Shown: positions 6,183 through 60,617 of the stretch, piece after piece | Layout: the number at the start of each line of letters is the position of its first letter | Numbering within the stretch: the first letter of the stretch is position 1 | From: Solirubrobacteraceae bacterium | Lineage (GTDB): Bacteria > Actinomycetota > Thermoleophilia > Solirubrobacterales > Solirubrobacteraceae | Assembly: GCA_035535075.1 (NCBI GenBank) | Contig: DATLQS010000012.1 | Location: 6,494-70,493 of the forward strand | Reading direction: 5' to 3' | Length of the DNA stretch: 64,000 nucleotides | Position numbers and translations under genes: made by a program | Notes under the pieces: generated by a model | What the model was told of the DNA's origin: nothing | Seen by the model: only the letters and a program-made list of their open reading frames with translations | Databases searched by the model: none

Positions 6183-8165
<1,983 letters not shown>

Positions 8166-8264
8166 TGGCTCCGCGGGGTCGGGGACGTCATGTCCAAGGC
8201 GTGCAAGCGTACCACGGCGCTCCGGCGGTCAATGCAGGGTTGGAGCGAGGCTGCAACGGACCGA

Positions 8265-8816
8265 TCAGCTTCCGGCGAGTGCGGCGACGTACGGGAGGTT
8301 GCGATAACGCTCCGCGTGATCGAGGCCGTAGCCGATCGCGAAGCAGTTGGCGATCTCGAAGCCGACGTATTTCACCGGCAGGTCGACCTTGCGCCGGTCG
8401 GGCTTGGTCAGCAGGGCGCAGACCTCCACGGTCGCCGGGTTGCGGGCGCCCAGGCTGCGCAGCAGGTACTGCAGCGTCAGGCCGGAATCGACGATGTCCT
8501 CGACGATCAGGACGTCGCGCCCCTCGATCGGCGCGTCGAGATCCTTGAGGATCCGGACGACCCCCGACGAGTCGGTCGCCGAACCGTAGGACGCCACCGC
8601 CATGAAGTCGAGCTCGCAGGGCACATCGACGTGGCGCATCAGGTCGCTGGCGAAGAACACCGCGCCCTTCAGCACGCAGACCATCAGCAGATCCCTGTTC
8701 AGGTAGTCGCGCGACACCTCCTTGCCGAGGGCGCGCACGCGGCGCTGGAGCGCCTTGGCTTCGACGAGGGTCTCGCCCAGCAGCGGATCGGCCATCGAGG
8801 GGGTCAGTGTAGTCAC
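8265..8816 (-). CDS. hpt: hypoxanthine phosphoribosyltransferase
   Basis: LLMVCVLKGAVFFASDL ... DFMAVASYG ... DVLIVEDIVDSGLTL (PRPP loop) ... GYGLDHAERYRNLPYV. GTG 8816 forms a GTGA overlap with the tilS stop. ATG 8795 is an equally plausible start. Confidence 0.88.
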   Translation of the reverse strand: MTTLTPSMADPLLGETLVEAKALQRRVRALGKEVSRDYLNRDLLMVCVLKGAVFFASDLMRHVDVPCELDFMAVASYGSATDSSGVVRILKDLDAPIEGRDVLIVEDIVDSGLTLQYLLRSLGARNPATVEVCALLTKPDRRKVDLPVKYVGFEIANCFAIGYGLDHAERYRNLPYVAALAGS

Positions 8817-10135
8817 GCACGCTCGGCGCGGAGCACCGCCACCCGGCGCGTGTCGGGCCGCACGCGAAACCGCTCGGCGGTGGCGACGCTTGGGATCCAC
8901 GCGATCTCGGCGTCGCTGAGCAGGATCGGCAGCGACGCGCGCTGCGCCCGCGGGATCCTGCGATCGGTGAACAGATCGGCGAGCGTCTTGGTGCCGCCGA
9001 GTCCAAGCGGGCGCATCCGGTCGCCCGGGCGCCACGCGCGAACGGTCAACGGGCCATCCCGCAGCCGGTCGGCGTCGAGCATCCCGACGGTGCCGCCGGC
9101 GGCTGCGAGCAGCGGCGCGACAGCCGGCTCGACGGTGGCGCTGACCGCCCAGGAGCCGAACTCGACGGCGCCGGGGAGCTCGAGCGATTGCTCATCCGGC
9201 GCCCGCAGCGGCCGCTCACGTGTGAAGCGCAGGACCCCGTACTCGACCACCGCGCGGACGCCGCTGCCGACCTCGAGCGCGGCACTGCCGCCGCCCCGCC
9301 CGAGCTCCAGCAGCTCACCCAGGCGCGAGCCGACGGCGGCGACCGGCTCGCCGGCGGCGTCCTCGGCGAGGCGGATCACGACCAGCCGCGCCAGCGCGAC
9401 CGGCAGTTCGGCGAGTCGTGTCAGCGCGACCCGCGCCCGCCCGGCCAGCGCGACGTCGACGACGTCGTCGAGGACCGCAGCCTCGGCACGCAGGATCTCG
9501 ACGCTGCGCAGCAGGTTCTGCTCGGCCGCCGGGTGAACGCCGCGGAGCCCGCGCAGGACACGGTGTCGCACGCGCCCGCGCGCGAAGCGATCCGAATCGT
9601 TGGAGCTGTCGTCGCGCCACGCCAGGCCGCGCGCGACGCAGTGCGCGGCCGTCTGCTCGCGCGTCAACGCCAGCAGCGGCCTGATCAGGCGCCCCTCGCG
9701 CGGCGCCATTCCGAGCAGCGCCCGCCGCCCCGGTGAGGCCGCCAGGCGATAGAGCACGGTTTCGGCCTGATCCGAGGCCGTGTGGCCGGTCGCGATCAGC
9801 GCCCCGCCGGAGAGCTCGAGTGCCCGTGCGTAGCGCAGATCGCGCGCCCACGCCTGCAGGTTTCCGCGCTCGGGCGCGGCCGGCGCCGCGGCGCAGACGC
9901 AGCGCACGCCGAGGCGCTCGCCCAGCTCCCTGACGTGGCGCTCGTCGCCGTCGGACTCCTCGCCGCGCAGGCCGTAGTTGACGTGCAGCACCGTCACCCG
10001 CGACGCCCCGCAGATGCTCACCAGCACGTCGAGCAGGCAGACCGAGTCGCGACCGCCCGAAACCAGCGCGACCACGCGATCGGACGGCGAGAGGACCCCG
10101 CCGGCACGGACCGCCTCGAGCACCGAGCCTGGCAT
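8813..10135 (-). CDS. tilS: tRNA(Ile)-lysidine synthetase
   Basis: Internal ATG 10135 of ORF 8813..10306. PP-loop VVALVSGGRDSVCLL, plus GHTASDQAETVLYRL and the C-terminal WRPGDRMRPLG ... KTLADLF domain. Confidence 0.88.
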   Translation of the reverse strand: MPGSVLEAVRAGGVLSPSDRVVALVSGGRDSVCLLDVLVSICGASRVTVLHVNYGLRGEESDGDERHVRELGERLGVRCVCAAAPAAPERGNLQAWARDLRYARALELSGGALIATGHTASDQAETVLYRLAASPGRRALLGMAPREGRLIRPLLALTREQTAAHCVARGLAWRDDSSNDSDRFARGRVRHRVLRGLRGVHPAAEQNLLRSVEILRAEAAVLDDVVDVALAGRARVALTRLAELPVALARLVVIRLAEDAAGEPVAAVGSRLGELLELGRGGGSAALEVGSGVRAVVEYGVLRFTRERPLRAPDEQSLELPGAVEFGSWAVSATVEPAVAPLLAAAGGTVGMLDADRLRDGPLTVRAWRPGDRMRPLGLGGTKTLADLFTDRRIPRAQRASLPILLSDAEIAWIPSVATAERFRVRPDTRRVAVLRAERA

Positions 10136-23112: not shown

Positions 23113-24003
23113 TCAGCCGAGCCGCATCGCGTAGACCGCCGCGAGGCCCCCCCACGGGGCATAGGGAGCGAAGAACTCGCGCACCTCCTCCTCGTCCGCC
23201 CGTGCGCGCGGGTCCCCGCCGCTGCGCAGTCGCGCGACGAGCTTGCGCAACGCGAGATCTCCAGCCGGCACCGCGTCGAAGCGCCCCTGGCCGTGCAGCG
23301 CGAGACACTCGACGGTCCAGCTGCCGATGCCGGGCAGGGCCCGCAGGCGTCGCCACGCCCGCTCGTGGTCGGGGCTGTGCAGATCGACGCGGCCGCAGGC
23401 CACCTCGCGCGCCGCGCGCCGCAGGGCGAGCGCCCGCCCGGCCGAGAGATCGAAGGACTCGAGCAGCGCGGGCGCGGTACCGGCGAGCACGGCGGCGCTC
23501 GGCACGTCGCGCAACGGCGGTCCGGCGGTCCCCTCGCCGGCGAGCGCAGGCCCGAGCCGGCGCACGATCCGCCGCTCGATGCCGACCGCCCGCGTGTACT
23601 CGATCAGCTGCTCGCAGATCGCCCAGGCGAGAGCCTCGAACGGTTCGGGGCGGCGCCGTGGGCGAAGCCAGGGAAGCCGGCGGACCAGGCGTCCGATCAG
23701 CGCGTCGGCGCGAAACCGGGCGTGGAATTCCGACAGATCGTCGTCGACGCCGAGCGCGAAGCGCATCCGCTCGAGCGCCCGCTCGCAGGCCCCGCGCGAT
23801 GGGCCCCAGGCGCCGATCAGCACGCTGTGGGCGCCTGGCTGCGCGGCACGAACGACGACCGGCTGTCCCTCGACGTGCAACAGGCGCTCGAGCACCCCGC
23901 CGCGCGCGCGCAGCACCCCGTCGGCCCCACCGCCCGGCAGTCGCAGCGGCCAACGCGGCGCCACCTCGACGCGCCGCTCGCAGGTTCCCGGGAGTTCACG
24001 CAC
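23113..24003 (-). CDS. alkA: DNA-3-methyladenine glycosylase II (AlkA-like, HhH-GPD)
   Basis: 296 aa with the HhH-GPD segment LRALPGIGSWTVECLALHGQGRFDAVPAGDLALRK. Confidence 0.8.
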   Translation of the reverse strand: MRELPGTCERRVEVAPRWPLRLPGGGADGVLRARGGVLERLLHVEGQPVVVRAAQPGAHSVLIGAWGPSRGACERALERMRFALGVDDDLSEFHARFRADALIGRLVRRLPWLRPRRRPEPFEALAWAICEQLIEYTRAVGIERRIVRRLGPALAGEGTAGPPLRDVPSAAVLAGTAPALLESFDLSAGRALALRRAAREVACGRVDLHSPDHERAWRRLRALPGIGSWTVECLALHGQGRFDAVPAGDLALRKLVARLRSGGDPRARADEEEVREFFAPYAPWGGLAAVYAMRLG

Positions 24004-24092
24004 GGCGCGCCATTGAAGCGTGCGGCGCGGACGTGCCGGTTGCGCCGCCGCGATCGCTCACCGCGATGGGCGAGCCGTTCCGTCCCGAGCCA

Positions 24093-24434
24093 CTACGGGC
24101 CTGCGAGTGTGTGCACGTCGACGACGAAGGTCCGCGACGCGACGACCTCGAGCGCCGGCTCGCGCCGGCGCACCGCGGTACTCGGCGCAACACTCGACGC
24201 GACGCTCGGGGCGCGACGCGCCTGCACCCGTGCGAAGTGGCGGCCGAGCACCGCGGCGGTGGCCGCTCCTGCGACGAACCCCGTGGCCGCGACGGCGGCA
24301 ACCTGCACGAATGGCGGCGGACCATGGCGCACCACCTCGACCTCGCGGACGTTCGCGACGACCAGGACGCCGTCGACGACCTCGGGCTCCTCGACGGAGT
24401 TCTCGATCGATGCCGACTGCTCGTGGCCCATCAC
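24093..24434 (-). CDS. hypothetical small protein with one predicted TM segment
   Basis: 113 aa with strong third-position GC bias in this frame. Acidic N-terminus and hydrophobic FVQVAAVAATGFVAGAATAAVLG. Lies 38 nt downstream of the GNAT gene. Confidence 0.5.
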   Translation of the reverse strand: MMGHEQSASIENSVEEPEVVDGVLVVANVREVEVVRHGPPPFVQVAAVAATGFVAGAATAAVLGRHFARVQARRAPSVASSVAPSTAVRRREPALEVVASRTFVVDVHTLAGP

Positions 24435-24471
24435 AGCTCTCTCTCACCCGACGTCGTGCAAGTCTCGCAGA

Positions 24472-25602
24472 TCACTGCAGGCTGCGTTCGTAGACACGAA
24501 AACGGCGCACGATCTCGCCGCCCATGCCCTCCATCGCGCGGTTCATCGGGCGGTTGGTCTCGAGGATCCAGCCCATCTCGCCGCCCTTCTGTGGCGTGCG
24601 CTCGGCCGCGTCGAAATGCATCTGGTAGAAGCGCGCCGCGATACCGGTGTGCTGGTACTCCGGCTTGACGCCGAGCGCGAACACCCGCACGGCGTCGATC
24701 TTGCCGCGGTAGTACAGCGCCTTGGCCCAGCCGAACGGCAGCAGGCGACCGTTGAGATGCGCGAGGACCTGGTTGAAGTCCGGGAGCGTGAGCGCGGCGC
24801 CGACCACCTCGCCGGTGTCGACGCGCTCTGCGAGGTAGGCCCAGTTCTCGTCGAGCACGGGCTTGAGGTCCTTGGCGTAATGGTGGACCTCCTCCTCGGT
24901 CAGCGGCACCGACGCCCAGTTGCGCTCCCAGGCGGCGTTGTAGACCTCGAGGAAGCGCGACACCTCGGCCTGCAGGTCGCGTTTGCGCATCGGCCGGCAG
25001 ACGATCCCGTGTTCTGACTCGACCCTGTCGGCCATCCGCCAGATCGCGTCGCGTACCCTCGATCGCCCTCTGATGTGCAGGCTCCACATCAACAGGTCCA
25101 TCGCCTTCTCGAGGCCCTCGCCCTCGAGCAGCGCCTGATAGTACGGGTGATGCCAGCTCGAGAGGATGATCGGCGGGCGCTCGTGGCCTTCGATCATCAG
25201 GCCGCACTCGTCGTTGGTGGTGAAGTCCATCGGACCGACCATCCGGTCACGGTCGTGTTCGCGCAACCAGGACTCCGCGGCGCCGAGCAGCGCGTGCGCC
25301 GTCTCGCGCGAATCCTCGCACTCGAAGAAGCCGAACATCCCCCAGTCGTTGCCCTGGAACTCGTTGAAGCGGTGGTCGAGATGCGCGGTGATCCGCCCCA
25401 CCGGCTGCCCGTCGCGCCACGCCAGGAAGTACTCCGCGGCAGCATGCTTGAAGAACGGATTGCCCTTGCGGTCGAGCCGCTTGTGCATATCCATGTTGAG
25501 CGGCGCGATCCAGCGCGGCTCGTTACGATAGAGCGAGGAGGGGAGCGCGATGAAGCGCCGTAAGTCGCGCTTGTCGGCGACCGGCCGGATCTCGAGGCTC
25601 AC
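24472..25602 (-). CDS. two-lobed GNAT-fold acyl-CoA N-acyltransferase (function unknown)
   Basis: 376 aa with a GTG start. The C-terminal lobe has the GNAT motif-A-like VFALGVKPEYQHTGIAARFY. The N-terminal lobe IRPVADKRDLRRFIALPSSLY ... GFFECED looks like a second degenerate GNAT. Confidence 0.65.
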   Translation of the reverse strand: MSLEIRPVADKRDLRRFIALPSSLYRNEPRWIAPLNMDMHKRLDRKGNPFFKHAAAEYFLAWRDGQPVGRITAHLDHRFNEFQGNDWGMFGFFECEDSRETAHALLGAAESWLREHDRDRMVGPMDFTTNDECGLMIEGHERPPIILSSWHHPYYQALLEGEGLEKAMDLLMWSLHIRGRSRVRDAIWRMADRVESEHGIVCRPMRKRDLQAEVSRFLEVYNAAWERNWASVPLTEEEVHHYAKDLKPVLDENWAYLAERVDTGEVVGAALTLPDFNQVLAHLNGRLLPFGWAKALYYRGKIDAVRVFALGVKPEYQHTGIAARFYQMHFDAAERTPQKGGEMGWILETNRPMNRAMEGMGGEIVRRFRVYERSLQ

Positions 25603-25616
25603 CCGCCCCAGCCTAC

Positions 25617-26894
25617 ATGCACCCGCCCCCCGACGTCTTCGCCAAGATCCGCGACCACGAGCGCGTTGCGTTGATGCGCGCGGCGCGTGAGCACGGCCTG
25701 CTGCCGTACTTCCACGAGGTCGAGTCCCCGGCGATGCCGATCGTCCAGATGGACGGGAAGCCGCGGATCATGCTCGGCTCCAACAACTACCTCGGGCTGA
25801 CCGCCGACGAGCGTGTGATGGCGGGCGCACGCGATGCGCTGGCGCGCTACGGAACCGGGCTGACCGGATCGCGGCTGCTCAACGGGACGACACCGCTGCA
25901 CCTCGAGTTGGAGCATGAGCTCGCCGAGTGGATGGGAACGGAGGACGCGATCGTCTTCACCACCGGGCAGCAGGCCAACGTCGGCACGCTCGCGACGCTG
26001 CTCGGGACCGGCGACACGGTGGTCGTCGATTCCGCCGACCACGCCTCGCTGCTCGACGGGGCGCTGCTCTCGCGGGCCAAGCTCAGAGCGTTCCGCCACA
26101 ACCGGATGGACAAGCTCGAGAGCACCCTCGAGAAGGCCGTCGGCGACGGAGGCGGCGTGCTCGTGGTTGTCGACGGGGTCTTCTCGATGGAGGGCGACAT
26201 CGCGCCGCTGCGCGAGATCGCGACGCTCACGCGGCGCTTCGGCGCGCGGCTGATGGTCGATGAAGCCCACGCCGTCGGCGTGCTCGGCACGCGCGGCGCC
26301 GGCACCGCCGAGCTGCTCGGCGTCGAGGACCAGGCCGATCTGCGGATGGGGACCTTCTCCAAGTCGCTCGCCTCCTGCGGCGGCTTCGTCGCCGGGGACG
26401 CCGACGTGATCGAGTTCCTGAAGATCCAGAGCCGGGCCTTCCTGTTCACCGCCTCGGGCGTTCCCGCCGCGGTCGGCGCCGCGCTGGCGGCGTTGCGCGT
26501 GATCCGCTCAGCGGAGGGCCGCGAGCTGATGGCCCGCGTGCTCGCGAACGCGCGGCACCTCAACCGCGGTCTTCACGAGCTTGGCTTCGACGTCGTCGAA
26601 CCGTCGCCGGTGACGAGCGCCGCGGGCACGCTGGAGTCGATCATCACCCCGATCGTGCCGGTCCGCGTCGGCGAGGACTGGCACGCCGGCCTGTTGTGGC
26701 GAGCACTGTGGGACGCCGGCGTGTTCACGAATGTCGCCGTCCATCCGGCGGTGCCCCCGGGCGGGGCGCTGCTTCGCACCAGCGTCATGGCCACCCACGA
26801 CGAGGCCGTGATCGACCGGGCGCTCGATGCCTTCGCGACGGTGAAGCGAGCGTTTGAGGCCGAGCACGGGCCGCTTCCGGGGCCCTCAGGATGA
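25617..26894 (+). CDS. PLP-dependent alpha-oxoamine synthase, serine-palmitoyltransferase-like paralog of BioF
   Basis: 425 aa with LGSNNYLGL, GSRLLNGT, DSADHASLLDG, VDEAHAVG and the Lys motif GTFSKSLASCGGFV. The last contrasts with [14 protein letters not shown] in the bona fide bioF at 40863. Confidence 0.85.
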   Translation: MHPPPDVFAKIRDHERVALMRAAREHGLLPYFHEVESPAMPIVQMDGKPRIMLGSNNYLGLTADERVMAGARDALARYGTGLTGSRLLNGTTPLHLELEHELAEWMGTEDAIVFTTGQQANVGTLATLLGTGDTVVVDSADHASLLDGALLSRAKLRAFRHNRMDKLESTLEKAVGDGGGVLVVVDGVFSMEGDIAPLREIATLTRRFGARLMVDEAHAVGVLGTRGAGTAELLGVEDQADLRMGTFSKSLASCGGFVAGDADVIEFLKIQSRAFLFTASGVPAAVGAALAALRVIRSAEGRELMARVLANARHLNRGLHELGFDVVEPSPVTSAAGTLESIITPIVPVRVGEDWHAGLLWRALWDAGVFTNVAVHPAVPPGGALLRTSVMATHDEAVIDRALDAFATVKRAFEAEHGPLPGPSG

Positions 26895-26966
26895 TTGTGC
26901 ACGTCCACACAAGGCTCTGCTGAGAGAAAAACCTCGCTCCGAGCGAACGCGGTACACGGTGATGCG

Positions 26967-26996
26967 TTGACCAACGCGGGGGCGCTGTCGTAGCTT
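26967..26996 (+). promoter_or_regulatory. candidate sigma-A type promoter upstream of the MihF-like gene
   Basis: TTGACC (26967..26972), an 18-nt spacer, then TAGCTT (26991..26996, fits TAnnnT). It sits 181 nt upstream of the ATG in the lower-GC intergenic stretch. Confidence 0.3.
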
Positions 26997-27177
26997 CCAT
27001 GCACGCTCGGCGCGGAGGTGCCCGGGGCTTTGAGAGGGGCCCCTGTGACTCCCAGGAGTGCAACGACCACGGTCAGCAGCACGGTCATTCGCCGGAGCGG
27101 CCCACCCCGCGTTCGCGCGTACAGCGTAAACCAACAACCGGATTGGCGCTCGTCAACGCGAGCGTTCGGGAGCCCAG

Positions 27178-27546
27178 ATGAATGCGACAGTGATCGCCTA
27201 CGGGCCGCAACACATGCGGGCCCTTCAACGCGCCAATGAGGTGCGCCTCGCGCGTGCCGAACTGAAGCGCCGAGTGACGGACGGCGAGACGACTGCCGCG
27301 GCTGTGATCCTCGCCTCGCCGTGGGAGGCGGAGAGCATGGCCGTAGCCGAGCTCCTGATGAGCCAGCACCGCTGGGGGCACACCCGCGCGCGACGGTTCC
27401 TCGCCGGCATCCCGATGACGGAGACCAAGACGATCGGCTCAATGACCGAGCGTCAGCGCCGGAGCCTTGCAGCGATGCTCGAGGCGCAGACGCCGACCGG
27501 TCGCACCGCGACCGGCGGCGTGGCGCGCGAGGAATTGCTCGTCTGA
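27178..27546 (+). CDS. actinobacterial integration-host-factor (MihF)-like DNA-binding protein
   Basis: 122 aa, with GGGAG 5 nt upstream of the ATG. LARAELKRRVTDGETT ... MAVAELLMSQHRWGHTRARRFLAGIPM ... IGSMTERQRRSLAAML aligns by eye with mycobacterial mIHF (ARAELKDRLKRGGTN ... MKVSALLEALPKVGKVKAQEIM ... LGDRQRKALLEKF). Confidence 0.5.
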   Translation: MNATVIAYGPQHMRALQRANEVRLARAELKRRVTDGETTAAAVILASPWEAESMAVAELLMSQHRWGHTRARRFLAGIPMTETKTIGSMTERQRRSLAAMLEAQTPTGRTATGGVAREELLV

Positions 27547-30298: not shown

Positions 30299-32647
30299 TC
30301 AGACGATCGATGCCGCGCCGCCCGTGCTGCGCACCTCGGGCGCCTGCAGCGTCACCGGCGCCGTGTGCATTGCGCGCAGCTTGACGTCGCGCCACGACAT
30401 GCCCTCGCGCAGCAATGCCGGGATCCCCATCACCACCGCCGTCGTCACCTCGATTGCCTGGAGGACGATTCCGTAGGCGATCGCCTCCGCCGTCGAGACG
30501 TGAAAGGCCCCAGCCAGCACGGCGACGCAGGCCGCCTGGAACACGCCGACGTTCGACGGCGCCGCCGGGAGCACCGCGGTCACGTTGACCGCGAACAGCA
30601 CGCCGGCCGCGGCGGCGAGGCCGGCGCGGTGGTCGAGGCCGAGCGCGATCAGCAGTACGTAGCAGGAGGCGCACTGGAGCATCCACGCACCGAGTTGCGC
30701 GCTGACGGCGATCGCCCCGAGTCGCGGCTCGCGGAACACTCGCATTCCGGCGCGCAGTCGGATCAGCACCAGGCGCAGTTGGGCTCGGAAGGCGTCCAGG
30801 CGCATCGAGCGCGATGGACCGCCACGGCGGCCGACGATCAACGGCGCGGCGAGGATCAGCCCCGCGAGGACCGCCGGGCCGACGGCAACGGCGATCAACG
30901 CGGTGTGGCGACCGTTGAAGAGGTCGACGCTGGTGAACATCACGGCGCCCAGACCGGCCAGCGCGAGCAGGTTCAGGAGCGTCTGGGAGACGATCGTCCC
31001 GAGCACGATCGGGAAGGTCTCGGCCGGGCGGCCGACGCGGCGGGCGACGATCAGCGAGCGCGATGGCTCACCGAGCCGTGCCGGCAACGTCGCACTCATC
31101 AGCACGCCGATGAAGGTGCCCTGCATCGCGTCGGCGCGGCGCACCCTCGAGCCGGGCAGGGCGGCTCGGAGGATCGCGTGCCAGGCGATGCCGCGCGCCG
31201 CCATCGCCGCGCACATCAGCGCGAGGCCGAAGATCACCCACGACGGCTGGGAGGTCACCAGCGCCCGGGCGATCCGTCCCGGGCCGATCTGCTCGACCGC
31301 GAGCACCGCCGCCGCGACGCCGGCAGCGCCGACCATCGCGAACAGCGCGCGCCGCAGCCCGGTGAGCGCCCGCTGGCGCCGGGTGCGCTCGTCGCGTTCG
31401 AGACTTGGCAGACGCCGCTGCGCCGGACGGCGCTCGGCCAAATCGGCACCGCGCGCGCCGATGCGCACCGCGGCGCGCATGATCGCGCCGCGCGGCTCGG
31501 GGATCGCAATCGCGTCCTCGTACGCGTTGAGGACCTCGGCGGCGACGAGCGGCCAGGCGTAGTCGTGGGCGTGCTCGGCGGCGGCCAGCGACATCGCCTG
31601 ACGCCGCGGGACGTCGAAGGCCAGTTCGAGCAGCGTCTGCGCGAGCGCCGTCGCATCGCCGCGCCCGAACAGCACCCCGTCGAGGCCGTCGCGCACGACA
31701 TCGTTGTAGCCCGCGATGTCGGAGGCCACGACCGGCGTGCCGACGGCGAAGGCCTCGGTCAGCACCATGCCGAAGCTCTCCCCGCCGAGCGCCGGGGCGA
31801 CCAGCAGATCGGCCGCCCCGAGGACCGCGATCTTCTCGGCGTCGCCGACCTTGCCGAGGGCGTTGACCCCCTGGAGGTCGGCCAGCATCATCTCGAGCTC
31901 GGCGTGCTCGACGCCGATCACATCGAAGCTCACCGGGACGTGCTCGCGCAACGCCTCGAACGCGCGCAGCGCGACCGGGAGCCCCTTGCGCGCCACCGCC
32001 TGGCCGACGAACGCGAGGCGCAGGGGCTGCTGGGCACTCGGCATGCCGGCAGCCGCGCGGCTGATCCGATCGGGCACCGCCACGCCATTGGGGATCACGC
32101 GATAGTGCCCCCCGAAGAAACGTTCACCGGTCCACGCCGCCGCCCGTGACACGGCGATCCGCACGTGCAGGCTGTTGAACCGCCGCCGCGCGCCGGCGAG
32201 ATTCCCAAGGTTGTTGGTCAGCCGGTTCGTCGAGTAGGTGTGAAAGGTCCCGACGGTCGGCAGACCGCTCGAACGGACCGCGTCCCATCCGACGACGGGC
32301 ACGATCGGCTCGTGGACATGGACCACGTCGTAGTCGCCCGCGCGCAGCTCCTGACGCATGCGCACCACCGCGGACGGAGCGAGCGCGACATTCGAGACGG
32401 CGCCGTTGGCGCGAAGCCCGACCGTGCGGCCCAGCGAGACGACGTTGGCCGACTGCTCGCGCGCCTGCGGACGGGCCCCGCGATGCAGCCGCACGCTGAG
32501 TCGGTCGTCAGGGTCAAACGGGGTGAGAATCCGCGGTTCGTGCCCGATGGCCGCGAGCTCGTCCGCGAGCGCCTCGATGTGACGGGTGACCCCCCCGGGA
32601 TACGTCCACGAGTAGGGCGAGACGAGGGCGATCCGCATCGCCGTCAT
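30299..32647 (-). CDS. fusion of GT4 glycosyltransferase (N-terminal) with a multi-pass lysyl-PG-synthase-TM/flippase-like domain (C-terminal)
   Basis: 782 aa. N-terminus MRIALVSPYSWTYPGGVTRHI ... ESFGMVLTEAFAVGTPVVASDIAGYNDVV (EX7E). The C-terminal ~330 aa form about 8 hydrophobic segments rich in small residues. Confidence 0.8.
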   Translation of the reverse strand: MTAMRIALVSPYSWTYPGGVTRHIEALADELAAIGHEPRILTPFDPDDRLSVRLHRGARPQAREQSANVVSLGRTVGLRANGAVSNVALAPSAVVRMRQELRAGDYDVVHVHEPIVPVVGWDAVRSSGLPTVGTFHTYSTNRLTNNLGNLAGARRRFNSLHVRIAVSRAAAWTGERFFGGHYRVIPNGVAVPDRISRAAAGMPSAQQPLRLAFVGQAVARKGLPVALRAFEALREHVPVSFDVIGVEHAELEMMLADLQGVNALGKVGDAEKIAVLGAADLLVAPALGGESFGMVLTEAFAVGTPVVASDIAGYNDVVRDGLDGVLFGRGDATALAQTLLELAFDVPRRQAMSLAAAEHAHDYAWPLVAAEVLNAYEDAIAIPEPRGAIMRAAVRIGARGADLAERRPAQRRLPSLERDERTRRQRALTGLRRALFAMVGAAGVAAAVLAVEQIGPGRIARALVTSQPSWVIFGLALMCAAMAARGIAWHAILRAALPGSRVRRADAMQGTFIGVLMSATLPARLGEPSRSLIVARRVGRPAETFPIVLGTIVSQTLLNLLALAGLGAVMFTSVDLFNGRHTALIAVAVGPAVLAGLILAAPLIVGRRGGPSRSMRLDAFRAQLRLVLIRLRAGMRVFREPRLGAIAVSAQLGAWMLQCASCYVLLIALGLDHRAGLAAAAGVLFAVNVTAVLPAAPSNVGVFQAACVAVLAGAFHVSTAEAIAYGIVLQAIEVTTAVVMGIPALLREGMSWRDVKLRAMHTAPVTLQAPEVRSTGGAASIV

Positions 32648-39750: not shown

Positions 39751-40866
39751 ATGCCCCCGTTGATCACGCGAGAGGAAGCGCTCGAGCTCGGCGAGTTGAG
39801 CGACCACGGCGAGATCGAGGCGTTGATCGAGCGCGCCTGGCATGCGCGGGTCGAGCGCTTCGGCGACTCGACCGACATGTGCTCGCTGGTCAACGCGAAG
39901 TCCGGCGGCTGTGCCGAGGACTGCGGCTTCTGCGCCCAGTCGCGCTTCGCGGACGCTGACACGCCGATGCACGCGATGATGGAGCCCGAGCAGATGCTCG
40001 AGCACGCGCGGGCCGCCGAGGCGGCCGGTGCGCACCGTTTCTGCATGGTCGCGCAGGGCCAGGGCCTTTCCAAGCGCGACTTCGAGAAGGTGCTGGCCGG
40101 CGCCCGGCTGGTCGCCGAGCACACGAACCTCAAGCGCTGCGCCTCGATCGGGCACATGTCCGTCGAGCGCGCCAAGGCACTGCGCGAGGCTGGGATCCAG
40201 CGCGTGCATCACAACGTCGAGTCCGCCGAGAGCTTCTACCCCGAGGTCTCGAGCACGGTGCGCTACGAGGGGCGGCTGCGGACGATCGAGGCGGTCCGCG
40301 AGGCCGGTCTCGAGACCTGCGTCGGCGGCATCCTCAACCTCGGCGAGACGCGCGAGCAGCGCGTCGAGATGGCGTTCGAGCTCTCCGCGATCAACCCGAC
40401 CAGCGTCCCGATCAACCTCCTGATCCCCCGCGCGGGCACCAAGTTCGGGGAACGCGAGCTGATGGACCCGTGGGAGGCGGTCAAATGGGTCGCGATCTTC
40501 CGCCTGATCCTCCCGGAGGCGCTGTTCCGGCTGTGCGGCGGGCGGATCGAGAACCTCGGCGAACTGGCGCCGCAGGCGGTCCGCGCCGGGCTCAACGGCG
40601 TGATGATGGGCAACTTCCTGACCGCGCTGGGCGCGACGCCGGCCGAGGACCGGGAGATGTTCGAACGCCACGGCCTCAACGTCGCACGGCAGCCCGACAA
40701 CGGCGCCAATCCGCGTCCCGACAATCGGTCCGGCTGGCTCGCGGGCGACACCCCCGACGTGATCGAGCGCTACCTCGACGAGGACAGCGAACTGCCCCTC
40801 CGGCTATGGGATCCCTCGACGCAGCTCCGCTACCGCTCGCGACGGACCCCGGAGCCGGCCCCATGA
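39751..40866 (+). CDS. bioB: biotin synthase (with about 50-aa C-terminal extension)
   Basis: 371 aa with radical-SAM GGCAEDCGFCAQS, HNVESAESFYPEV and GGILNLGET. Confidence 0.93.
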   Translation: MPPLITREEALELGELSDHGEIEALIERAWHARVERFGDSTDMCSLVNAKSGGCAEDCGFCAQSRFADADTPMHAMMEPEQMLEHARAAEAAGAHRFCMVAQGQGLSKRDFEKVLAGARLVAEHTNLKRCASIGHMSVERAKALREAGIQRVHHNVESAESFYPEVSSTVRYEGRLRTIEAVREAGLETCVGGILNLGETREQRVEMAFELSAINPTSVPINLLIPRAGTKFGERELMDPWEAVKWVAIFRLILPEALFRLCGGRIENLGELAPQAVRAGLNGVMMGNFLTALGATPAEDREMFERHGLNVARQPDNGANPRPDNRSGWLAGDTPDVIERYLDEDSELPLRLWDPSTQLRYRSRRTPEPAP

Positions 40867-42071
40867 CGGACATCGCCGCCCGGTTGGCGCAACTGCGCGA
40901 GGCGAGCCTCGACCGCCGCACGCGGCTGATCAGCGGCCCGCAGGGTCCCCGCGTGATGCTCGACGGGACGCCCGTGCTGCTGCTGTGCTCGAACAACTAC
41001 CTCGGTCTGGCCGACCACCCACGGGTGCGCGAGGCGGCCGCCGACGCGGCGATGCGCTGGGGTGTCGGCGCCGGCGCCTCGCGCCTGGTGTCCGGCACGA
41101 TGACGATCCACGAACGGCTCGAGCGCTGCCTGGCGGAGTTCGAGGGCACCGAGTCGTGCCTGCTCTACGGCTCTGGCTATCTCGCGAACATCGGCGTGCT
41201 CACGACGCTCGGGCGCGCCGGACAGACGATCTTCTCCGACGCCCTCAATCACGCCTCGATCATCGACGGCTGCCGGCTCGCGCGTGCCGACACGGTCGTC
41301 TACGGCCACTGCGATCTCGAACACCTGCAGTGGGCGCTGCGTGAGCGTGGACGCGAGGGCGACGTGATCGTCACCGACTCGGTCTTCTCGATGGATGGCG
41401 ACGTCGCCCCGCTCGCCGGAATCGTCGCGCTGGCCCGCCAGCACGGTGCGCTCGTCGTCGTCGACGAGGCCCACGCAACCGGCACGCTCGGCCCTGGCGG
41501 GCGCGGCGCGATCGCGGAGGCCGGGCTCGAGGGCGAGGTCGACGTGCTCGTCGGCACCCTCAGCAAGGCGCTCGGCTCCTACGGCGGCTACGTCTGCGCC
41601 AGGCACGAGATCGTCGAGCTGCTCGTCAACAGCTCGCGTTCGCTGATCTACTCCACCGCGCCGCCACCGCCCGCCGTGGCGGGCGCCCTCGCGGCGCTCG
41701 AGCTGCTGATCGAGCAGCCGCTGCGCCCCGAGAAGCTCCAGTCGACCGCCGAGCTGCTGCGCCGGCAGCTCATGGCTGCCGGGATGCCGGCGCCGAGCGG
41801 ACGCACCCCGATCATCCCGCTGATCGTCGGCGATGCCGACGTGGCCGTGCGCCTGTCGGATGCCGCGCTGGCGCGCGGCGTCTTCGCGCAGGCGATCCGC
41901 CCGCCGACCGTGCCCGCAGGCAGCTCGCGTCTGCGGCTGACCGTGATGGCGTCGCACACCGCCACCGAGCTCGCCGGCGCCGTCGCGGCGCTGAGCGACG
42001 CCGCGCACGAGGTCGGCGTGACGTTCGCTCCGGTCCCGGGCGCCGCGGAGCCTGTCGCCCGCGCCGCATAA
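40863..42071 (+). CDS. bioF: 8-amino-7-oxononanoate synthase
   Basis: ATG 40863 overlaps the bioB stop (ATGA). [33 protein letters not shown] and [14 protein letters not shown]. Confidence 0.9.
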
Positions 42072-42079
42072 GGCGCCGA

Positions 42080-42748
42080 GTGCTTCGCGGCTGCTTCGTC
42101 ACCGCCACCGACACCGGCGTCGGCAAGACGGTTCTCGCCGGCGCGCTGGTCGCCGGCCTGCGCGCCCGCGGCGTGCAGGTGCGCGCGCGCAAGCCGGTGA
42201 TCACGGGCGTCGACGAGGGCGATCACGGCGCGCTGCCCGACCACGAGCTGCTCGCCTCACTCAGCGGTGAGCCGCCCGAAGCGGTTTCCCCGGCGCGCTA
42301 CGGTCCGGCGGTCTCACCCCATCTCGCCGCCGAGCTCGCCGGCGAGGCGATCGACGTCGCGGCGCTGCTCGACGACGCGCGCGCAAGCGGCCCGGTGATC
42401 GTCGAGGGGATCGGCGGCCTGCTCGTCCCGCTGGCCGAGGGCTGGGATGTGCGCCGGTTCGCCCGCGAGCTCGGGCTCGGCGTGGTGGTCGCGGCGCGTC
42501 CGGGGCTTGGAACCATCAACCACACCCTGCTCACTATCGAGGCCGCGCGATCGGTCGGCCTCGATCTGCGCGCGGTCGTGATGACGCCGTGGCCCGCTGA
42601 CCCCGGCGTACTCGAGCGATCCAACCTGGCGACGGTCGAGCGGCTTGGCCTGGTCGAGGTCGCCACGCTGGCGATGGTGCCCGAGCTCAGCGCCGCCGCT
42701 CTGGCGAGCGCCGCTGCCTTGCTGCCCTACGACCGTTGGCTGGCGTGA
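42080..42748 (+). CDS. bioD: dethiobiotin synthase
   Basis: 222 aa with a GTG start: FVTATDTGVGKT P-loop and VIVEGIGGLLVPL. Confidence 0.9.
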   Translation: MLRGCFVTATDTGVGKTVLAGALVAGLRARGVQVRARKPVITGVDEGDHGALPDHELLASLSGEPPEAVSPARYGPAVSPHLAAELAGEAIDVAALLDDARASGPVIVEGIGGLLVPLAEGWDVRRFARELGLGVVVAARPGLGTINHTLLTIEAARSVGLDLRAVVMTPWPADPGVLERSNLATVERLGLVEVATLAMVPELSAAALASAAALLPYDRWLA

Positions 42749-48273: not shown

Positions 48274-50274
48274 CTACGCACCCAGCGGGGCCGACTCCTC
48301 GTCGCGGATCACGTGCAGCACCGCGTTGATCAACGCGAGATGGGTGAACGCCTGCGGGAAGTTGCCGAGGTGGCGCCCGCTCAGTGGATCGAGCTCCTCC
48401 GCGAACAGGTCCAGCGGCGAGGCGAGGGCGAGCAGGCGCTCGCAGAGCGCCCGTCCGCGCCGGCGCTCACCGATCTCCAGCAGTCCCGATACGAGCCAGA
48501 ACGAGCAGATCAGGAACGAGCCCTCGTGAGCGCCGGCCAGCCCGTCGTCGGTCTGGTCGGGGCGGTAGCGGAGCACGAGGCCCTGCTCGGTCAGTTCGTC
48601 CTCGATCGCCAGCACGGTCGCGCGCACGCGATGGTCCTCCGCGGGCAGGAAGCGCACGAGCGGGATCAGCAGGTTGGAGCCGTCGAGGGCGACGGTGTCG
48701 TAGTGCTGGACGAACACGCCGCGCTCGTCGACGCCGCGCTCGCAGATGTCGGCATGGATCTCGTTCGCGACCTCTCGCCAACGGTCGGCGAGCGCCTCGC
48801 GTCCACGGCGTGCCGCGAGCCGCGCGGCGCGGTCCATGGCGACCCAGCACATCAGCTTCGACGAAACGTAGTGGCGGGGCTCTCCGCGGGCCTCCCAGAT
48901 GCCGTGGTCGGCCTCGCGCCAGACGGCTGCCGCGCGATCGGCCTGCGCCTCGATCACCGGCCACAGGCGCTGCGAGCTGTGTCCGTACTGCTTGGTGTGA
49001 AGGTAGAGCGAGTCGAGCACCGCGCCATAGACGTCGTTCTGGCGCTGGCTGGCCGCGTCGTTGCCGATCCGCACCGGACGCGCCCCCTCGTAGCCCGTCA
49101 GATGGTCGAGCGTGTGCTCGGTGAGGTCGCGCTCACCGCCGACGCCGTACATGATCTGCAGCGAGCCGTCGGTGTTGCGCTCGAGGTCGGCGACGTACTG
49201 GATGAAGTCGTCGGCCTCCCAGCTCAGCCCCAACGACGAGAGCCCCCACAGCGTGAGCGTCGCGTCGCGCATCCAGGTGAAGCGATAGTCCCAGTTGCGC
49301 TCGCCGCCCGGCGTCTCCGGCAGCGAGGTCGTCGGTGCGGCGACGACGGCGCCGGTGGGCGCGTAGGTCAGGCCCTTGAGGACCAGCGCCGAGCGTTGCA
49401 GCTGCGCCCGCCAACGGTGGTCGGGGAAGTCGCCGGTGTCAAGCCAGTTGCGCCAGTACTCGGCGGTCGAGGCGAGGCTGTCGGCGGCCTGCGCATAGGT
49501 CTGCGGGCCGTCGAGCAGCCGTGACCACGACAGCGCGCAGAACCGGCGGTCGCCCTTGACGAGGCGGTGACGCGCGCGCGCCGAGCCGCCCTCGATCCCG
49601 AGCTGCAGATCGCTGTGCAGACGCAGGGTTCGCCCGGCCCCCTCGGCATCGAAGGCGCGCGGGTCGCCCTCGACCGGGCTCCAGACCCCGGGGGTTCGGC
49701 CATAGTCGAACATCGGCTCGCAGAGCAGCTCGACCTGGACCGAGCCGTGGAAACACTCGATCGTGCGAACGAGCACGTGGTAGGCGTCGTGGTCGGCCGG
49801 CGGCCGCGTGTGCGCCGTCGCCGAGCCCATCTCGCGCGCGCGCCAGGGGCCGAGGATCAGCGCCTCGCGAACGACGGCCCAGCCGGTCGGCGTCTGCCAG
49901 GTCGTCTCGAGCACGTTGGTGCCCGGCTCATAGCGGCGGCCGGCCGGAACTCCCATCCCTGAGGGACCGAGCCGGAACCCGCCGGCGCCGCGGTCGAGAA
50001 TCGCCGCGAACACGCTCGGCGAGTCAAAGCGCGGCGGGCAGAGCCATTCGACGGTCCCGTCCGGGGCAACCAGCGCCGCGGTATGGCAGTCGGAGAGGAA
50101 CGCGTAGTCGGCGATCGGCGGGAACGGCGAAGTGCGCGCGACCCGGTCGTCGAACGGCGTCGCCGTCGTGCGCGGGCGATCCCATGGATCCATTGCGCCC
50201 GCGCGCCGCAGGCTCGGCACCGGATCCGGCGTGCGCGGTCCGTGGGTCGTGTCGGTTTGACGCGTGTCGGCCAT
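48274..50274 (-). CDS. glycoside hydrolase family 15 protein (glucoamylase/trehalase-like), copy 1
   Basis: 666 aa: FPPIADYAFLSDCHTAALVAPDGTVEWLCPPRFDSPSVF, ERNWDYRFTWMRDA, FLICSFWLV and GNFPQAFTHLALI. Confidence 0.88.
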   Translation of the reverse strand: MADTRQTDTTHGPRTPDPVPSLRRAGAMDPWDRPRTTATPFDDRVARTSPFPPIADYAFLSDCHTAALVAPDGTVEWLCPPRFDSPSVFAAILDRGAGGFRLGPSGMGVPAGRRYEPGTNVLETTWQTPTGWAVVREALILGPWRAREMGSATAHTRPPADHDAYHVLVRTIECFHGSVQVELLCEPMFDYGRTPGVWSPVEGDPRAFDAEGAGRTLRLHSDLQLGIEGGSARARHRLVKGDRRFCALSWSRLLDGPQTYAQAADSLASTAEYWRNWLDTGDFPDHRWRAQLQRSALVLKGLTYAPTGAVVAAPTTSLPETPGGERNWDYRFTWMRDATLTLWGLSSLGLSWEADDFIQYVADLERNTDGSLQIMYGVGGERDLTEHTLDHLTGYEGARPVRIGNDAASQRQNDVYGAVLDSLYLHTKQYGHSSQRLWPVIEAQADRAAAVWREADHGIWEARGEPRHYVSSKLMCWVAMDRAARLAARRGREALADRWREVANEIHADICERGVDERGVFVQHYDTVALDGSNLLIPLVRFLPAEDHRVRATVLAIEDELTEQGLVLRYRPDQTDDGLAGAHEGSFLICSFWLVSGLLEIGERRRGRALCERLLALASPLDLFAEELDPLSGRHLGNFPQAFTHLALINAVLHVIRDEESAPLGA

Positions 50275-50330
50275 CCAGCGCTACACGATGACAGGGCCGA
50301 ACCGGCGCGTCACCCGGCGCACGTTTTGGT

Positions 50331-59835: not shown

Positions 59836-60617
59836 CGCAGCGGCGCACCGATCGCGTGAAATCCCCCATCGACGTGCAGGATCTCGCCGGTGATCGCCCG
59901 AGCGTGGTCGCTCAGCAGAAAGCACACGGCAGCGGCGATCGGAGCGGCATCGCGGGTGTCCCAGCCCAGCGGCGCGCCCGAGCGCCAGAGCGACGCGAGC
60001 TCGTCGAATCCCGGGATCCCGCCCGCCGCGATCGTCTCGATCGGCCCGGCCGAGACGAGGTTCACGCGCACACCGCGCGGGCCGAGGTCGCGCGCCAGGT
60101 AGCGCGAGACGCTCTCGAGCGCGGCCTTGGCGACGCCCATCCAGTCATAGACCGGCCAGGCGACGCTGGCGTCGAAGTCCAGGCCGACGACCGAGCCGCC
60201 GCCTTCGCCCGCCTCGAGCAACGGCGCGAGCGCCGCGGCCAGCGCCTTCAACGAGAACGCGCTGGTCTGGAAGGCGACGATCGCGCTGCTCGCGGGCGTG
60301 TCGAGAAACCCGCCGCCGAGGGCATCGGCCGGCGCGAACGCGATTGCGTGCAGCACACCGTCCAGCTCGCCCCAGCGCGCGCCGAGCTCCGCCGCGATGC
60401 GGGCGAGGTCCTCGGGCTCGTTGACGTCGAGCTCGAGGACGTCCGGCGGATCGGGCAGGTGCTTGGCGGCACGCTCGGTCAACCGCAGCCCACGACCGAA
60501 GCCGCTGAGCACGATCTCGGCCCCGTCCTCCTGCGCCTGGCGCGCGACCTCGAAGGCGATCGAGCCGCGCGTCAGCACCCCGGTGATCAGCAGCCGCTTG
60601 CCGGCCAGCAGGCTCAC
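59832..60617 (-). CDS. fabI: enoyl-[acyl-carrier-protein] reductase (NADH), FabI/InhA type
   Basis: 261 aa: KRLLITGVLTRGSIAF ... LHAIAFAP ... MGVAKAALES ... VRVNLVSAGPIET. Confidence 0.9.
   Translation of the reverse strand: MSLLAGKRLLITGVLTRGSIAFEVARQAQEDGAEIVLSGFGRGLRLTERAAKHLPDPPDVLELDVNEPEDLARIAAELGARWGELDGVLHAIAFAPADALGGGFLDTPASSAIVAFQTSAFSLKALAAALAPLLEAGEGGGSVVGLDFDASVAWPVYDWMGVAKAALESVSRYLARDLGPRGVRVNLVSAGPIETIAAGGIPGFDELASLWRSGAPLGWDTRDAAPIAAAVCFLLSDHARAITGEILHVDGGFHAIGAPLR

What the first reader, a model, noticed from the sequence alone, without database searches (positions are those of the whole stretch)
24093..26894. SPT-like alpha-oxoamine synthase head-to-head with a two-lobed GNAT: candidate sphingoid / N-acyl-aminolipid module
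A canonical bioF sits inside bioB-bioF-bioD at 40863..42071, so 25617..26894 is a second oxoamine synthase with a different role. Its PLP-lysine motif is GTFSKSLASCGGFV and it carries GSRLLNGT. From memory these are closer to serine palmitoyltransferase (GTFSKS, GSRMLNGT) than to this genome's own BioF ([14 protein letters not shown]) or to KBL. Its ATG is 14 bp from the GTG of a divergent 376-aa protein built from two GNAT-like lobes (QHTGIA acyl-CoA motif in the second lobe), followed by a 113-aa one-TM protein. Established background: bacterial ceramide synthesis in Caulobacter uses Spt plus a GNAT-type N-acyltransferase plus a reductase. Mycobacterial BioF2 (Rv0032) fuses a GNAT-like domain to an AONS-like domain of unknown function. 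Inference: this pair makes an N-acylated amino-ketone or sphingoid-type lipid. No CerR-type reductase or dedicated ACP is adjacent, so the pathway would be incomplete here or differ from the Caulobacter one.
Basis: partly seen in the sequence, partly recalled or inferred. Interest (0 to 1): 0.7.

Follow-up and report, generated by a model that had tools for sequence, protein, structure and literature searches.

The report
Ceramide-synthesis gene pair in a soil actinobacterium
Two back-to-back genes in an uncultured soil actinobacterium (Solirubrobacteraceae) are relatives of the first two enzymes of the known bacterial ceramide pathway (Spt and bCerS), so this is a new member of a known system and its usual third enzyme is not nearby.

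Summary
The 425-aa alpha-oxoamine synthase (AOS, 25617-26894, +) and the 376-aa tandem GNAT acetyltransferase-fold protein (24472-25602, -) start 14 nt apart. A 113-aa one-TM protein follows the GNAT.

- **The AOS is Spt-like.** Its best NCBIfam and PDB matches are serine palmitoyltransferases (322 bits to S. multivorum SPT, 239 to KBL). It separates from BioF/KBL in 100/100 NJ bootstraps. It scores below every curated Spt cut-off.
- **The GNAT is a bCerS homologue.** It is 36% identical over its full length to E. coli YghO, which the literature equates with Caulobacter CC_1154 (bCerS).
- **The linkage is broad.** Relatives sit beside or fused to Spt-like AOS genes in E. coli, Sphingomonas, Aureispira, Streptomyces, Rubrobacter, Nonomuraea and metagenomic clusters, almost always with a CerR-type reductase.
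- **Solirubrobacterales differ.** The divergent pair is kept in 62 of 80 species genomes, and none of the 62 has a CerR homologue within 10 kb. An order-restricted small membrane protein follows the GNAT instead.

Actinobacteria were already predicted to have this pathway, so this is a new member of a known kind with a modest lineage-specific twist. No biochemistry was done.

The parts
25617..26894 (+). Spt-like alpha-oxoamine synthase (PLP-dependent, 425 aa). Predicted to condense L-serine with a long-chain acyl-CoA to give 3-ketodihydrosphingosine.
   Evidence: Pfam Aminotran_1_2, 179 bits. Best NCBIfam models are SPT-CFB 394 bits and SPT-BetaP 383 bits, ahead of bioF 341 and KBL 336, all below their cut-offs. 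Best PDB match is S. multivorum SPT at 322 bits, against KBL at 239. Groups with crystallised and NCBIfam-passing Spts against BioF/KBL in 100/100 NJ bootstraps. Catalytic residues K249, H142, D215, H218, T246, S190, N56 and Y58 are conserved, and A279 is Spt-type.
24472..25602 (-). bCerS/YghO-family tandem-GNAT N-acyltransferase (376 aa). Predicted to N-acylate the Spt product.
   Evidence: Weak Pfam hits only: PF00583 at 245-336 and PF13480 at 182-282. AF2 pLDDT 97, tandem GNAT fold. 36% identical over its full length to E. coli YghO, which PMC9386255 equates with CC_1154. Homologues are adjacent or fused to Spt-like AOS in 11 of 15 loci examined outside the 80 close Solirubrobacterales relatives.
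25603..25616 (.). 14-nt gap between the divergent start codons. It is too short to hold two promoters.
   Evidence: Sequence ccgccccagcctac. No sigma-70-like site in 24000-27200. In related genomes the estimated gap is 0-206 nt and mostly under 60 nt.
24093..24434 (-). Order-restricted single-pass membrane protein (113 aa) directly downstream of the GNAT. Function unknown; a possible accessory of the module.
   Evidence: A positional orthologue with a conserved TM core (AAVAAGGFVAGAA), a polybasic stretch and a C-terminal motif IVGSRSLLVDVHLL occurs in 56 of 63 AOS-linked loci by motif search. It occurs in 0 of 18 AOS-less GNAT loci and 0 of 17 loci from other lineages. More than 4,000 database relatives exist, and all named ones are Solirubrobacterales. 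Two further contexts show the same order. No Pfam or NCBIfam match.
23113..24003 (-). HhH-GPD (AlkA-like) glycosylase. A conserved syntenic neighbour with no functional link shown.
   Evidence: Weak Pfam HhH-GPD hit and NCBIfam PRK10308 at 44 bits. Present downstream of the small TM gene in 61 of the 62 AOS-linked loci, the exception being the truncated L055.
27178..27546 (+). Actinobacterial IHF-like protein (122 aa). A conserved syntenic neighbour downstream of the AOS with no functional link shown.
   Evidence: NCBIfam actino_IHF 44.8 bits, below the cut-off of 60. Present next to the AOS in all 62 AOS-linked loci.

Best explanation
The divergent pair encodes the first two enzymes of the bacterial ceramide pathway in a Solirubrobacteraceae genome.

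1. The Spt-like AOS condenses L-serine with a long-chain acyl-CoA to give 3-ketodihydrosphingosine. No dedicated ACP or acyl-ACP synthetase is present, as in the Bacteroidota-type enzymes.
2. The tandem-GNAT protein, a bCerS/YghO homologue, N-acylates this amine with a second acyl thioester to give 3-oxo-dihydroceramide.
3. The keto group would then be reduced by an enzyme encoded elsewhere or by a non-homologous reductase. Otherwise it stays unreduced.

Shown: homology of both proteins, active-site conservation, the tandem GNAT fold, cross-phylum gene linkage and fusion, and the lack of a CerR homologue near the pair. Inferred: the substrates, the order of steps, the product and its membrane role.
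For: - **AOS.** Spt models and Spt crystal structures are the best matches. It groups with S. multivorum SPT, with the E. coli cluster Spt (NCBIfam SPT-BetaP 600>500) and with a metagenomic Spt (SPT-CFB 688>640). This group splits from BioF/KBL in 100/100 bootstraps. All PLP and carboxylate-binding residues named in PMC10196870 are kept.
- **GNAT.** It is a full-length homologue of YghO. PMC9386255 Fig. 9 lists 'aca: CC_1154, yghO ECD_02850, Swit_3908, DRN02_007910' as the N-acyltransferase for dihydroceramide. The Sphingomonas parapaucimobilis locus reproduces that gene spacing exactly.
- **Linkage.**
  - A natural AOS-GNAT fusion flanked by an SDR and a PAP2_3 protein.
  - AOS-GNAT-SDR operons in Streptomyces, Rubrobacter, Nonomuraea and Aureispira.
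  - An inositol-phosphosphingolipid-type cluster.
  - The Caulobacter-type cluster in E. coli.
  - Conservation of the divergent pair in 62 of 80 Solirubrobacterales species genomes, and in a 58%/71%-identical outgroup with a 17-nt gap.
Against: - The AOS scores below every curated Spt equivalog cut-off (394 vs 640, 383 vs 500).
- No CerR-type reductase lies within 10 kb in any of the 62 linked loci or in the 64-kb window. The only SDR with any similarity is a thioester-reductase-type protein 32 kb away, scoring 51-52 bits against 78-171 bits among true CerRs.
- 18 related genomes, and a 54%-identical outgroup, carry the GNAT with no AOS nearby.
- Much flanking synteny is also conserved (HhH glycosylase, IHF-like). 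Adjacency within the order alone is therefore weak evidence.
- Serine specificity cannot be read from sequence.
- No lipid data exist.
Confidence: 0.75

Rival explanations
1. Same two-enzyme logic with a different amino-acid substrate. The AOS would use glycine, alanine or another amino acid, and the product would be a 1-deoxy-sphingoid or another N-acyl amino-ketone lipid rather than a true ceramide.
For: The AOS fails all Spt equivalog cut-offs. It differs from S. multivorum SPT at second-shell positions: A79->T83, F83->L87, F114->Q118, M271->L276. It carries an order-specific 13-27-residue insertion. PMC10196870 notes that Spt itself accepts Ala and Gly weakly. PMC11334938 discusses 1-deoxyceramides.
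Against: All residues contacting the serine carboxylate and hydroxyl network are kept: N56, S85, H142, S248 and the PLP phosphate ligands. The T83 and I/L276 variants also occur in the E. coli cluster's AOS, which passes the SPT-BetaP model and belongs to a cluster type whose E. coli BL21 Spt was assayed. A cysteate acyltransferase scores far lower (203 bits).
Confidence: 0.12
2. The two genes are neighbours by inherited synteny only. The GNAT would acylate an unrelated amine (a protein, small molecule or amino acid) and the AOS would work alone.
For: The GNAT occurs without an AOS within 10 kb in 18 of 80 related genomes, in variable contexts. The same holds for L096, L093 and L086. Unrelated neighbours (HhH, IHF-like) are just as conserved.
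Against: A gene fusion exists. Translationally coupled AOS-GNAT operons occur in at least six unrelated lineages. Characterised sphingolipid producers such as Bacteroides also have dispersed genes (PMC11334938), so non-adjacency does not imply independence.
Confidence: 0.06
3. The AOS is a diverged KBL or BioF paralogue for threonine or biotin metabolism.
For: bioF (341 bits) and KBL (336 bits) models still match strongly.
Against: A bona fide BioF sits in a bioB-bioF-bioD operon elsewhere in the window. Spt models and structures score higher. The split from BioF/KBL has 100/100 bootstrap support. The C-terminal loop is Spt-type, ALLRTS rather than SRLRL/ARIR. No tdh gene was seen beside it.
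Confidence: 0.03

Closest known systems
Bacterial ceramide synthesis: Spt + bCerS + CerR (Caulobacter crescentus CC_1162/CC_1154/CC_1164; E. coli B ECD_02854/yghO/ECD_02852)
   Same: Both window proteins are full-length homologues: 41% identity to the E. coli cluster Spt and 36% to YghO. The predicted two-step chemistry is the same.
   Different: No CerR, AcpR, AasR or second LptF/G copies are present. The genes are divergent with a 14-nt gap rather than dispersed over a 17-gene region. The host is a Gram-positive actinobacterium.
Actinobacterial Spt-bCerS-CerR operons (Rubrobacter radiotolerans plasmid 1, Streptomyces sp. NBC_01001 plasmid, Nonomuraea gerenzanensis)
   Same: Same phylum. The AOS is 43-46% and the GNAT 35-37% identical to the window proteins. 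The AOS shows the same 'best hit SPT-CFB but below cut-off' profile. Nonomuraea also has the divergent orientation.
   Different: All three have a CerR-type SDR immediately downstream of the GNAT. The window has a small TM protein there instead.
Sphingobacterium multivorum serine palmitoyltransferase (PDB 3A2B, 8GUH)
   Same: Highest-scoring solved structure (322 bits, 44% identity). A soluble, acyl-CoA-using, ACP-independent type. All catalytic residues are shared.
   Different: Four second-shell substitutions and an extra surface loop of about 14 residues after residue 327.
Tandem GNAT enzymes with solved structures (clavulanate-pathway CBG 2WPW, MAB_4324 7Q3A, mycothiol synthase MshD 1OZP, Eis)
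   Same: Two fused GNAT lobes, with the acyl-CoA motif in the C-terminal lobe.
   Different: Only fold-level similarity: TM-score 0.53-0.70, 10-16% identity, and no sequence-level PDB hit.

Membership tests
Serine palmitoyltransferase (bacterial Spt) | Fold-type I PLP alpha-oxoamine synthase with the Schiff-base lysine and the His/Asp/His PLP ligands | tested here: met
   K249, H142, D215, H218, T246 and S190 align with K244, H138, D210, H213, T241 and S185 of S. multivorum SPT.
Serine palmitoyltransferase (bacterial Spt) | Passes a curated Spt equivalog model (NCBIfam NF047599, NF047600 or NF047603) | tested here: not met
   394 vs 640, 383 vs 500 and 305 vs 670 bits. The models are lineage-specific (CFB, Beta, Alpha). 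The bCerS-linked AOS of Rubrobacter, Streptomyces and the fusion protein fail in the same way.
Serine palmitoyltransferase (bacterial Spt) | Falls in a clade with characterised Spts that excludes BioF and KBL | tested here: met
   NJ tree of 17 sequences; the split is found in 100 of 100 bootstraps. Sampling was small: no HemA, CqsA or cysteate acyltransferase, and no ML method.
Serine palmitoyltransferase (bacterial Spt) | Encoded near bCerS and/or CerR (the operational 'Spt-like clade B' criterion of PMC11334938) | tested here: met
   A bCerS homologue lies 14 nt away. CerR is absent nearby.
Serine palmitoyltransferase (bacterial Spt) | Makes 3-ketodihydrosphingosine from L-serine and acyl-CoA or acyl-ACP | not testable with these tools
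   Needs an enzyme assay.
Bacterial ceramide synthase (bCerS / CC_1154 / YghO) | Full-length sequence homology to a family member named in the literature | tested here: met
   36% identity over 380 residues to E. coli YghO, E 1e-69. 31.5% to the Sphingomonas 'aca' orthologue. The equivalence to CC_1154 comes from PMC9386255. The Caulobacter sequence itself was not available.
Bacterial ceramide synthase (bCerS / CC_1154 / YghO) | Gene linkage to spt across taxa | tested here: met
   11 of 15 loci outside the 80 close Solirubrobacterales relatives, plus one fusion, plus 62 of those 80 genomes.
Bacterial ceramide synthase (bCerS / CC_1154 / YghO) | N-acylates 3-KDS or sphinganine | not testable with these tools
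   Needs an enzyme assay or lipidomics.
Complete bacterial ceramide pathway (Spt+bCerS+CerR) | A CerR-type NAD-dependent epimerase-family reductase is present | tested here: not met
   No homologue in the 64-kb window apart from a thioester-reductase-type SDR at 58753-59925 (51-52 bits). None within 10 kb in the 62 related loci. The rest of the genome could not be searched.
Rhodobacteria-type Spt system (AcpR + AasR) | A dedicated ACP and acyl-ACP synthetase are encoded with spt | tested here: not met
   tblastn with the E. coli cluster ACP and fatty acyl-AMP ligase finds nothing in the window.
BioF (8-amino-7-oxononanoate synthase) | Passes TIGR00858 and sits in a bio operon | tested here: not met
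   341 vs 426 bits. The true BioF at 40863-42071 passes (446 bits) and sits between bioB and bioD.
Mycobacterial BioF2 (Rv0032)-type GNAT-AOS fusion | N-terminal PF13480 domain fused to a C-terminal AOS | not tested
   No Rv0032 sequence was to hand. The window GNAT gives only a sub-threshold PF13480 hit (20.9 vs 22 bits). The fusion found here has the opposite domain order, AOS then GNAT.

The most novel reading that the evidence does not exclude
Solirubrobacterales, an abundant and mostly uncultured soil actinobacterial order, would make sphingolipid-type lipids with a lineage-specific version of the pathway. It has no CerR-type reductase, so the product is either a 3-oxo-ceramide or is reduced by a non-homologous enzyme. 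An order-restricted single-pass membrane protein (conserved TM core GGFVAGA, polybasic stretch, C-terminal IVGSRSLLVDVHLL) would act as a membrane tether or regulator of the soluble Spt/bCerS pair. That would be functionally reminiscent of the small SPT subunits of eukaryotes.
Probability: 0.15. Interest if true: 0.65.

Novelty: new member of a known kind. Interest (0 to 1): 0.4.

Why it matters
- **Annotation.** Both genes carry generic names in public records: 'aminotransferase class I/II-fold' or 'PLP-dependent aminotransferase family' for the AOS, and 'GNAT', 'hypothetical' or even 'dATP pyrophosphohydrolase' for the GNAT. NCBIfam has no model for the bCerS/YghO family. Showing that this roughly 375-aa tandem-GNAT family (7,648 50%-identity clusters) is the bCerS family gives a usable annotation rule.
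- **Biology.** It extends predicted sphingolipid capacity to Solirubrobacterales, whose membrane lipids are essentially unstudied. That bears on the interpretation of soil lipid biomarkers.
- **The twist.** The consistent absence of CerR, and the conserved small membrane protein, are concrete and testable leads on how a Gram-positive cell might run this pathway.

Tried and rejected
- **Sequence searches for the GNAT.** A PDB sequence search gave only chance hits. NCBIfam gave no family for the GNAT or for 122 diverse relatives.
- **Primary bCerS paper.** Nat Chem Biol 2022 (PMC8891067) is not held. The bCerS identity was established through YghO and PMC9386255 instead.
- **The listing of cluster members on 10 representatives.** Almost no names or taxa came back.
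- **Candidate reductases.**
  - The SDR at 58753-59925 is rejected as CerR. It is a stand-alone NAD_binding_4 / thioester-reductase-type protein beside a GntR regulator and 2-oxoacid dehydrogenase genes, and it scores below the range seen among CerRs.
  - The SDR near the AOS-less GNAT in L052 is an ordinary sugar-nucleotide epimerase/dehydratase.
- **GT4 + LPG_synthase_TM fusion (30299-32647).** Considered as a lipid-modifying partner, but it is syntenic only in the nine closest genomes.
- **Small TM protein search.** A first regex search was too strict. It matched only 2 loci, which also voids the all-negative result of the same filter. The search was redone.
- **Promoter scan.** Nothing found in the 14-nt gap or its surroundings.
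Full report
**Source and observation**

The window comes from a Solirubrobacteraceae (Thermoleophilia, Actinomycetota) metagenome-assembled genome. The GNAT protein occurs identically on ENA contig ERZ27256801:k141_925237. The closest named proteins and the 80 closest genome loci are all Solirubrobacterales.

The quoted motifs are present. The two start codons are 14 nt apart. Homologue alignments reach residues 1-6 of both proteins, so the short gap is real.

bioB, bioF and bioD at 39751-42748 all pass their NCBIfam equivalog cut-offs. The AOS at 25617 is therefore an extra copy with a different job.

**The oxoamine synthase**

NCBIfam ranks it SPT-CFB 394 bits, SPT-BetaP 383, bioF 341 and KBL 336. 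All of these are below the curated cut-offs. Against solved structures it scores:

| Structure | Bits |
|---|---|
| Sphingobacterium multivorum SPT | 322 |
| Sphingomonas SPTs | 271 |
| KBL | 239 |
| Cysteate acyltransferase | 203 |
| BioF | under 190 |

I built an NJ tree with the window AOS, five Solirubrobacterales orthologues, the crystallised S. multivorum SPT and two AOS that pass Spt equivalog models. Those two are the E. coli cluster enzyme (600>500) and the L087 enzyme (688>640). The tree also held three bCerS-linked AOS (two actinobacterial and the fusion-protein domain), the window BioF and three PDB BioF/KBL sequences. The Spt-like set separates from BioF/KBL in 100 of 100 bootstraps. 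Sampling was small and the method was distance-based.

The residues that PMC10196870 describes as binding PLP and the serine carboxylate and hydroxyl are all conserved. Position 279 is Ala, as in every Spt-like sequence, against Thr or Asn in BioF/KBL. The C-terminal loop reads ALLRTS, not the SRLRL/ARIR of BioF/KBL. Second-shell differences are T83, L87, Q118 and L276. An order-specific variable insertion of 13-27 residues follows residue 327.

**The GNAT**

Sequence libraries give only weak PF00583 and PF13480 hits and no NCBIfam family. An exhaustive search of 50%-identity cluster representatives finds 7,648 clusters. Of these, 1,409 have E below 1e-30, and the best-scoring hits are mostly about 375 aa and match end to end.

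With an alignment of 122 of these, AlphaFold2 gives pLDDT 97 and pTM 0.93. Foldseek finds only tandem-GNAT enzymes, at TM-score 0.53-0.70 and 10-16% identity. The acyl-CoA motif (Q/R-x-x-G-x-A, here QHTGIA) and the invariant N350 lie in the second lobe. Invariant G123-P124 lie in the first.

The decisive result came from tblastn against annotated plasmid and chromosome records. The protein is 36% identical over its full length to E. coli YghO. In E. coli PN43, yghO lies next to a fatty acyl-AMP ligase, an NAD-dependent epimerase, an acyl carrier protein, the Spt and second copies of lptF and lptG. PMC9386255 lists 'aca: CC_1154, yghO ECD_02850, Swit_3908, DRN02_007910' as the N-acyltransferase required for dihydroceramide synthesis. 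PMC11324152 equates CC_1154 with CerS. PMC10865984 uses CCNA_01212 as the Caulobacter crescentus CerS reference sequence.

The Sphingomonas parapaucimobilis locus shows epi-acpR-spt, four intervening genes including lptF and lptG, then the GNAT. This matches the published locus-tag spacing exactly. The window GNAT is therefore a member of the bCerS family.

**Linkage beyond the order**

| Locus | Arrangement |
|---|---|
| P0135 (780 aa, seen on several assemblies) | Natural fusion of an AOS (48% identical to the window AOS) and this GNAT, preceded by an overlapping SDR and followed by a PAP2_3 protein |
| L083 | AOS-GNAT-SDR-PAP2_3 |
| L087 | Inositol-lipid cluster: CDP-alcohol transferase, PAP2_3, AOS, GNAT, SDR, inositol-1-phosphate synthase, PgpA, a DAG-kinase-like lipid kinase |
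| Streptomyces sp. NBC_01001 and Rubrobacter radiotolerans plasmids | AOS-GNAT-SDR operons with overlapping or closely spaced genes |
| Nonomuraea | AOS<>GNAT-SDR, divergent as in the window |
| Aureispira | SDR<>AOS-GNAT |
| L097 | AOS-GNAT-PAP2_3, no SDR visible on this 5.2-kb contig |
| L098 (58% GNAT / 71% AOS identity) | The divergent pair with a 17-nt gap |

Four loci lack an AOS within the stretch seen: L086, L091 (Roseomonas, a Caulobacter-like lptFG context), L093 and L096. The tally is 11 of 15 loci linked. Nine of those 11 also carry a CerR-type SDR, and the other two (L097, L098) are short contigs.

**Within Solirubrobacterales**

Of 80 species-representative genomes, 62 keep the block IHF-like <- AOS <> GNAT -> small ORF -> HhH glycosylase. 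Two more contexts found later are identical, although their outer flanks differ. None of the 62 has a CerR-like SDR, PAP2_3, ACP or acyl-AMP ligase homologue within 10 kb.

Eighteen genomes carry a 73-76%-identical GNAT with no AOS nearby. Their contexts are not conserved, and these GNATs are scattered through the NJ tree. The GNAT has therefore been relocated several times. One of the 18 (L066) has only 590 bp upstream and is uninformative.

**The 113-aa protein**

tblastn detects it only in close relatives. A positional search shows a small ORF in the same place in essentially every AOS-linked locus. The ORF has:

- an acidic N-terminus (EEVDAxPVL);
- a conserved TM core (AAVAAGGFVAGAA);
- a polybasic stretch;
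- a strongly conserved C-terminal motif, IVGSRSLLVDVHLL.

The motif ORF is found in 56 of 63 linked loci. It is found in none of the 18 AOS-less loci and in none of 17 loci from other lineages. A profile search finds more than 4,000 relatives, all 'hypothetical', and all named ones are from Solirubrobacterales.

It is a real, order-restricted gene. Whether it works with the pair or is just part of the same syntenic block cannot be decided here.

**Interpretation**

The pair is best read as Spt plus bCerS, making an N-acylated long-chain amino-ketone (3-oxo-dihydroceramide). Reduction would occur elsewhere or not at all.

The Spt is probably of the ACP-independent, acyl-CoA-using type. No AcpR or AasR is present, and its closest models are the CFB type.

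The 14-nt divergent gap has no recognisable promoter or ribosome-binding site. This suggests leaderless transcripts or promoters inside the partner gene. That is an inference.

**Novelty**

[quoted passage not shown] PMC11334938 extends Spt-like genes to 40 phyla. A full-text search found no paper linking Solirubrobacter with sphingolipids and serine palmitoyltransferase.

This is therefore a new member of a known kind. Its two lineage-specific features are the absence of a linked CerR and the presence of an order-restricted small membrane protein.

Noticed in passing
window 26590-26650 (AOS residues ~327-345): Solirubrobacterales AOS orthologues carry a variable 13-27-residue insertion (here VVEPSPVTSAAGTLESII). 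It is absent from every other Spt, BioF or KBL sequence aligned.
   Followed up: partly
window 58753-59925 (-): Stand-alone NAD_binding_4 / thioester-reductase-type SDR (390 aa) beside a GntR/FCD regulator and 2-oxoacid dehydrogenase E1 alpha/beta genes. It has weak similarity to CerR reductases (25-27% identity, about 51 bits) but belongs to a different SDR subfamily.
   Followed up: partly
window 30299-32647 (-): 782-aa fusion of a GT4 glycosyltransferase with a lysyl-PG-synthase-type TM (flippase-like) domain, 3.4 kb from the AOS. It is syntenic only in the nine closest genomes. An LPG_synthase_TM protein also sits in the L087 sphingolipid-type cluster.
   Followed up: partly
L083 3899-4972 and L020 7276-8295: A roughly 350-aa protein with no Pfam match ends the AOS-GNAT-SDR-PAP2_3 operon of L083. 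A 45%-identical homologue lies directly after the GNAT in one Solirubrobacteraceae genome (L020), in place of the small TM gene. It may be an uncharacterised sphingolipid-cluster component.
   Followed up: no
P0123 (784 aa, from the representative search): A protein made of two complete copies of the bCerS-type tandem GNAT in tandem, giving four GNAT lobes.
   Followed up: no
L091 (Roseomonas gilardii pRo-1) 7968-9125 and other Roseomonas plasmids: bCerS-family genes are annotated 'dATP pyrophosphohydrolase' in RefSeq. They sit beside second LptF/G copies, a sterol-desaturase-family gene, an acylglycerol kinase and a CDP-alcohol transferase, which looks like a misannotated sphingolipid locus.
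   Followed up: no
window 48274-52289 (-): Two adjacent paralogous GH15 / trehalase-N-domain glycoside hydrolases of 666 and 652 aa.
   Followed up: no
window vs L001: The ENA contig carrying the identical GNAT is only 51 kb long. It differs slightly from the window elsewhere: the small TM protein is 99% identical and the GT4 fusion 99.4%. The window therefore comes from a near-identical but separate assembly.
   Followed up: no
window 27178-27546 (+): The IHF-like protein scores below the actinobacterial IHF model cut-off (44.8 vs 60 bits). Even so, it is conserved next to the AOS in all 62 linked genomes.
   Followed up: no
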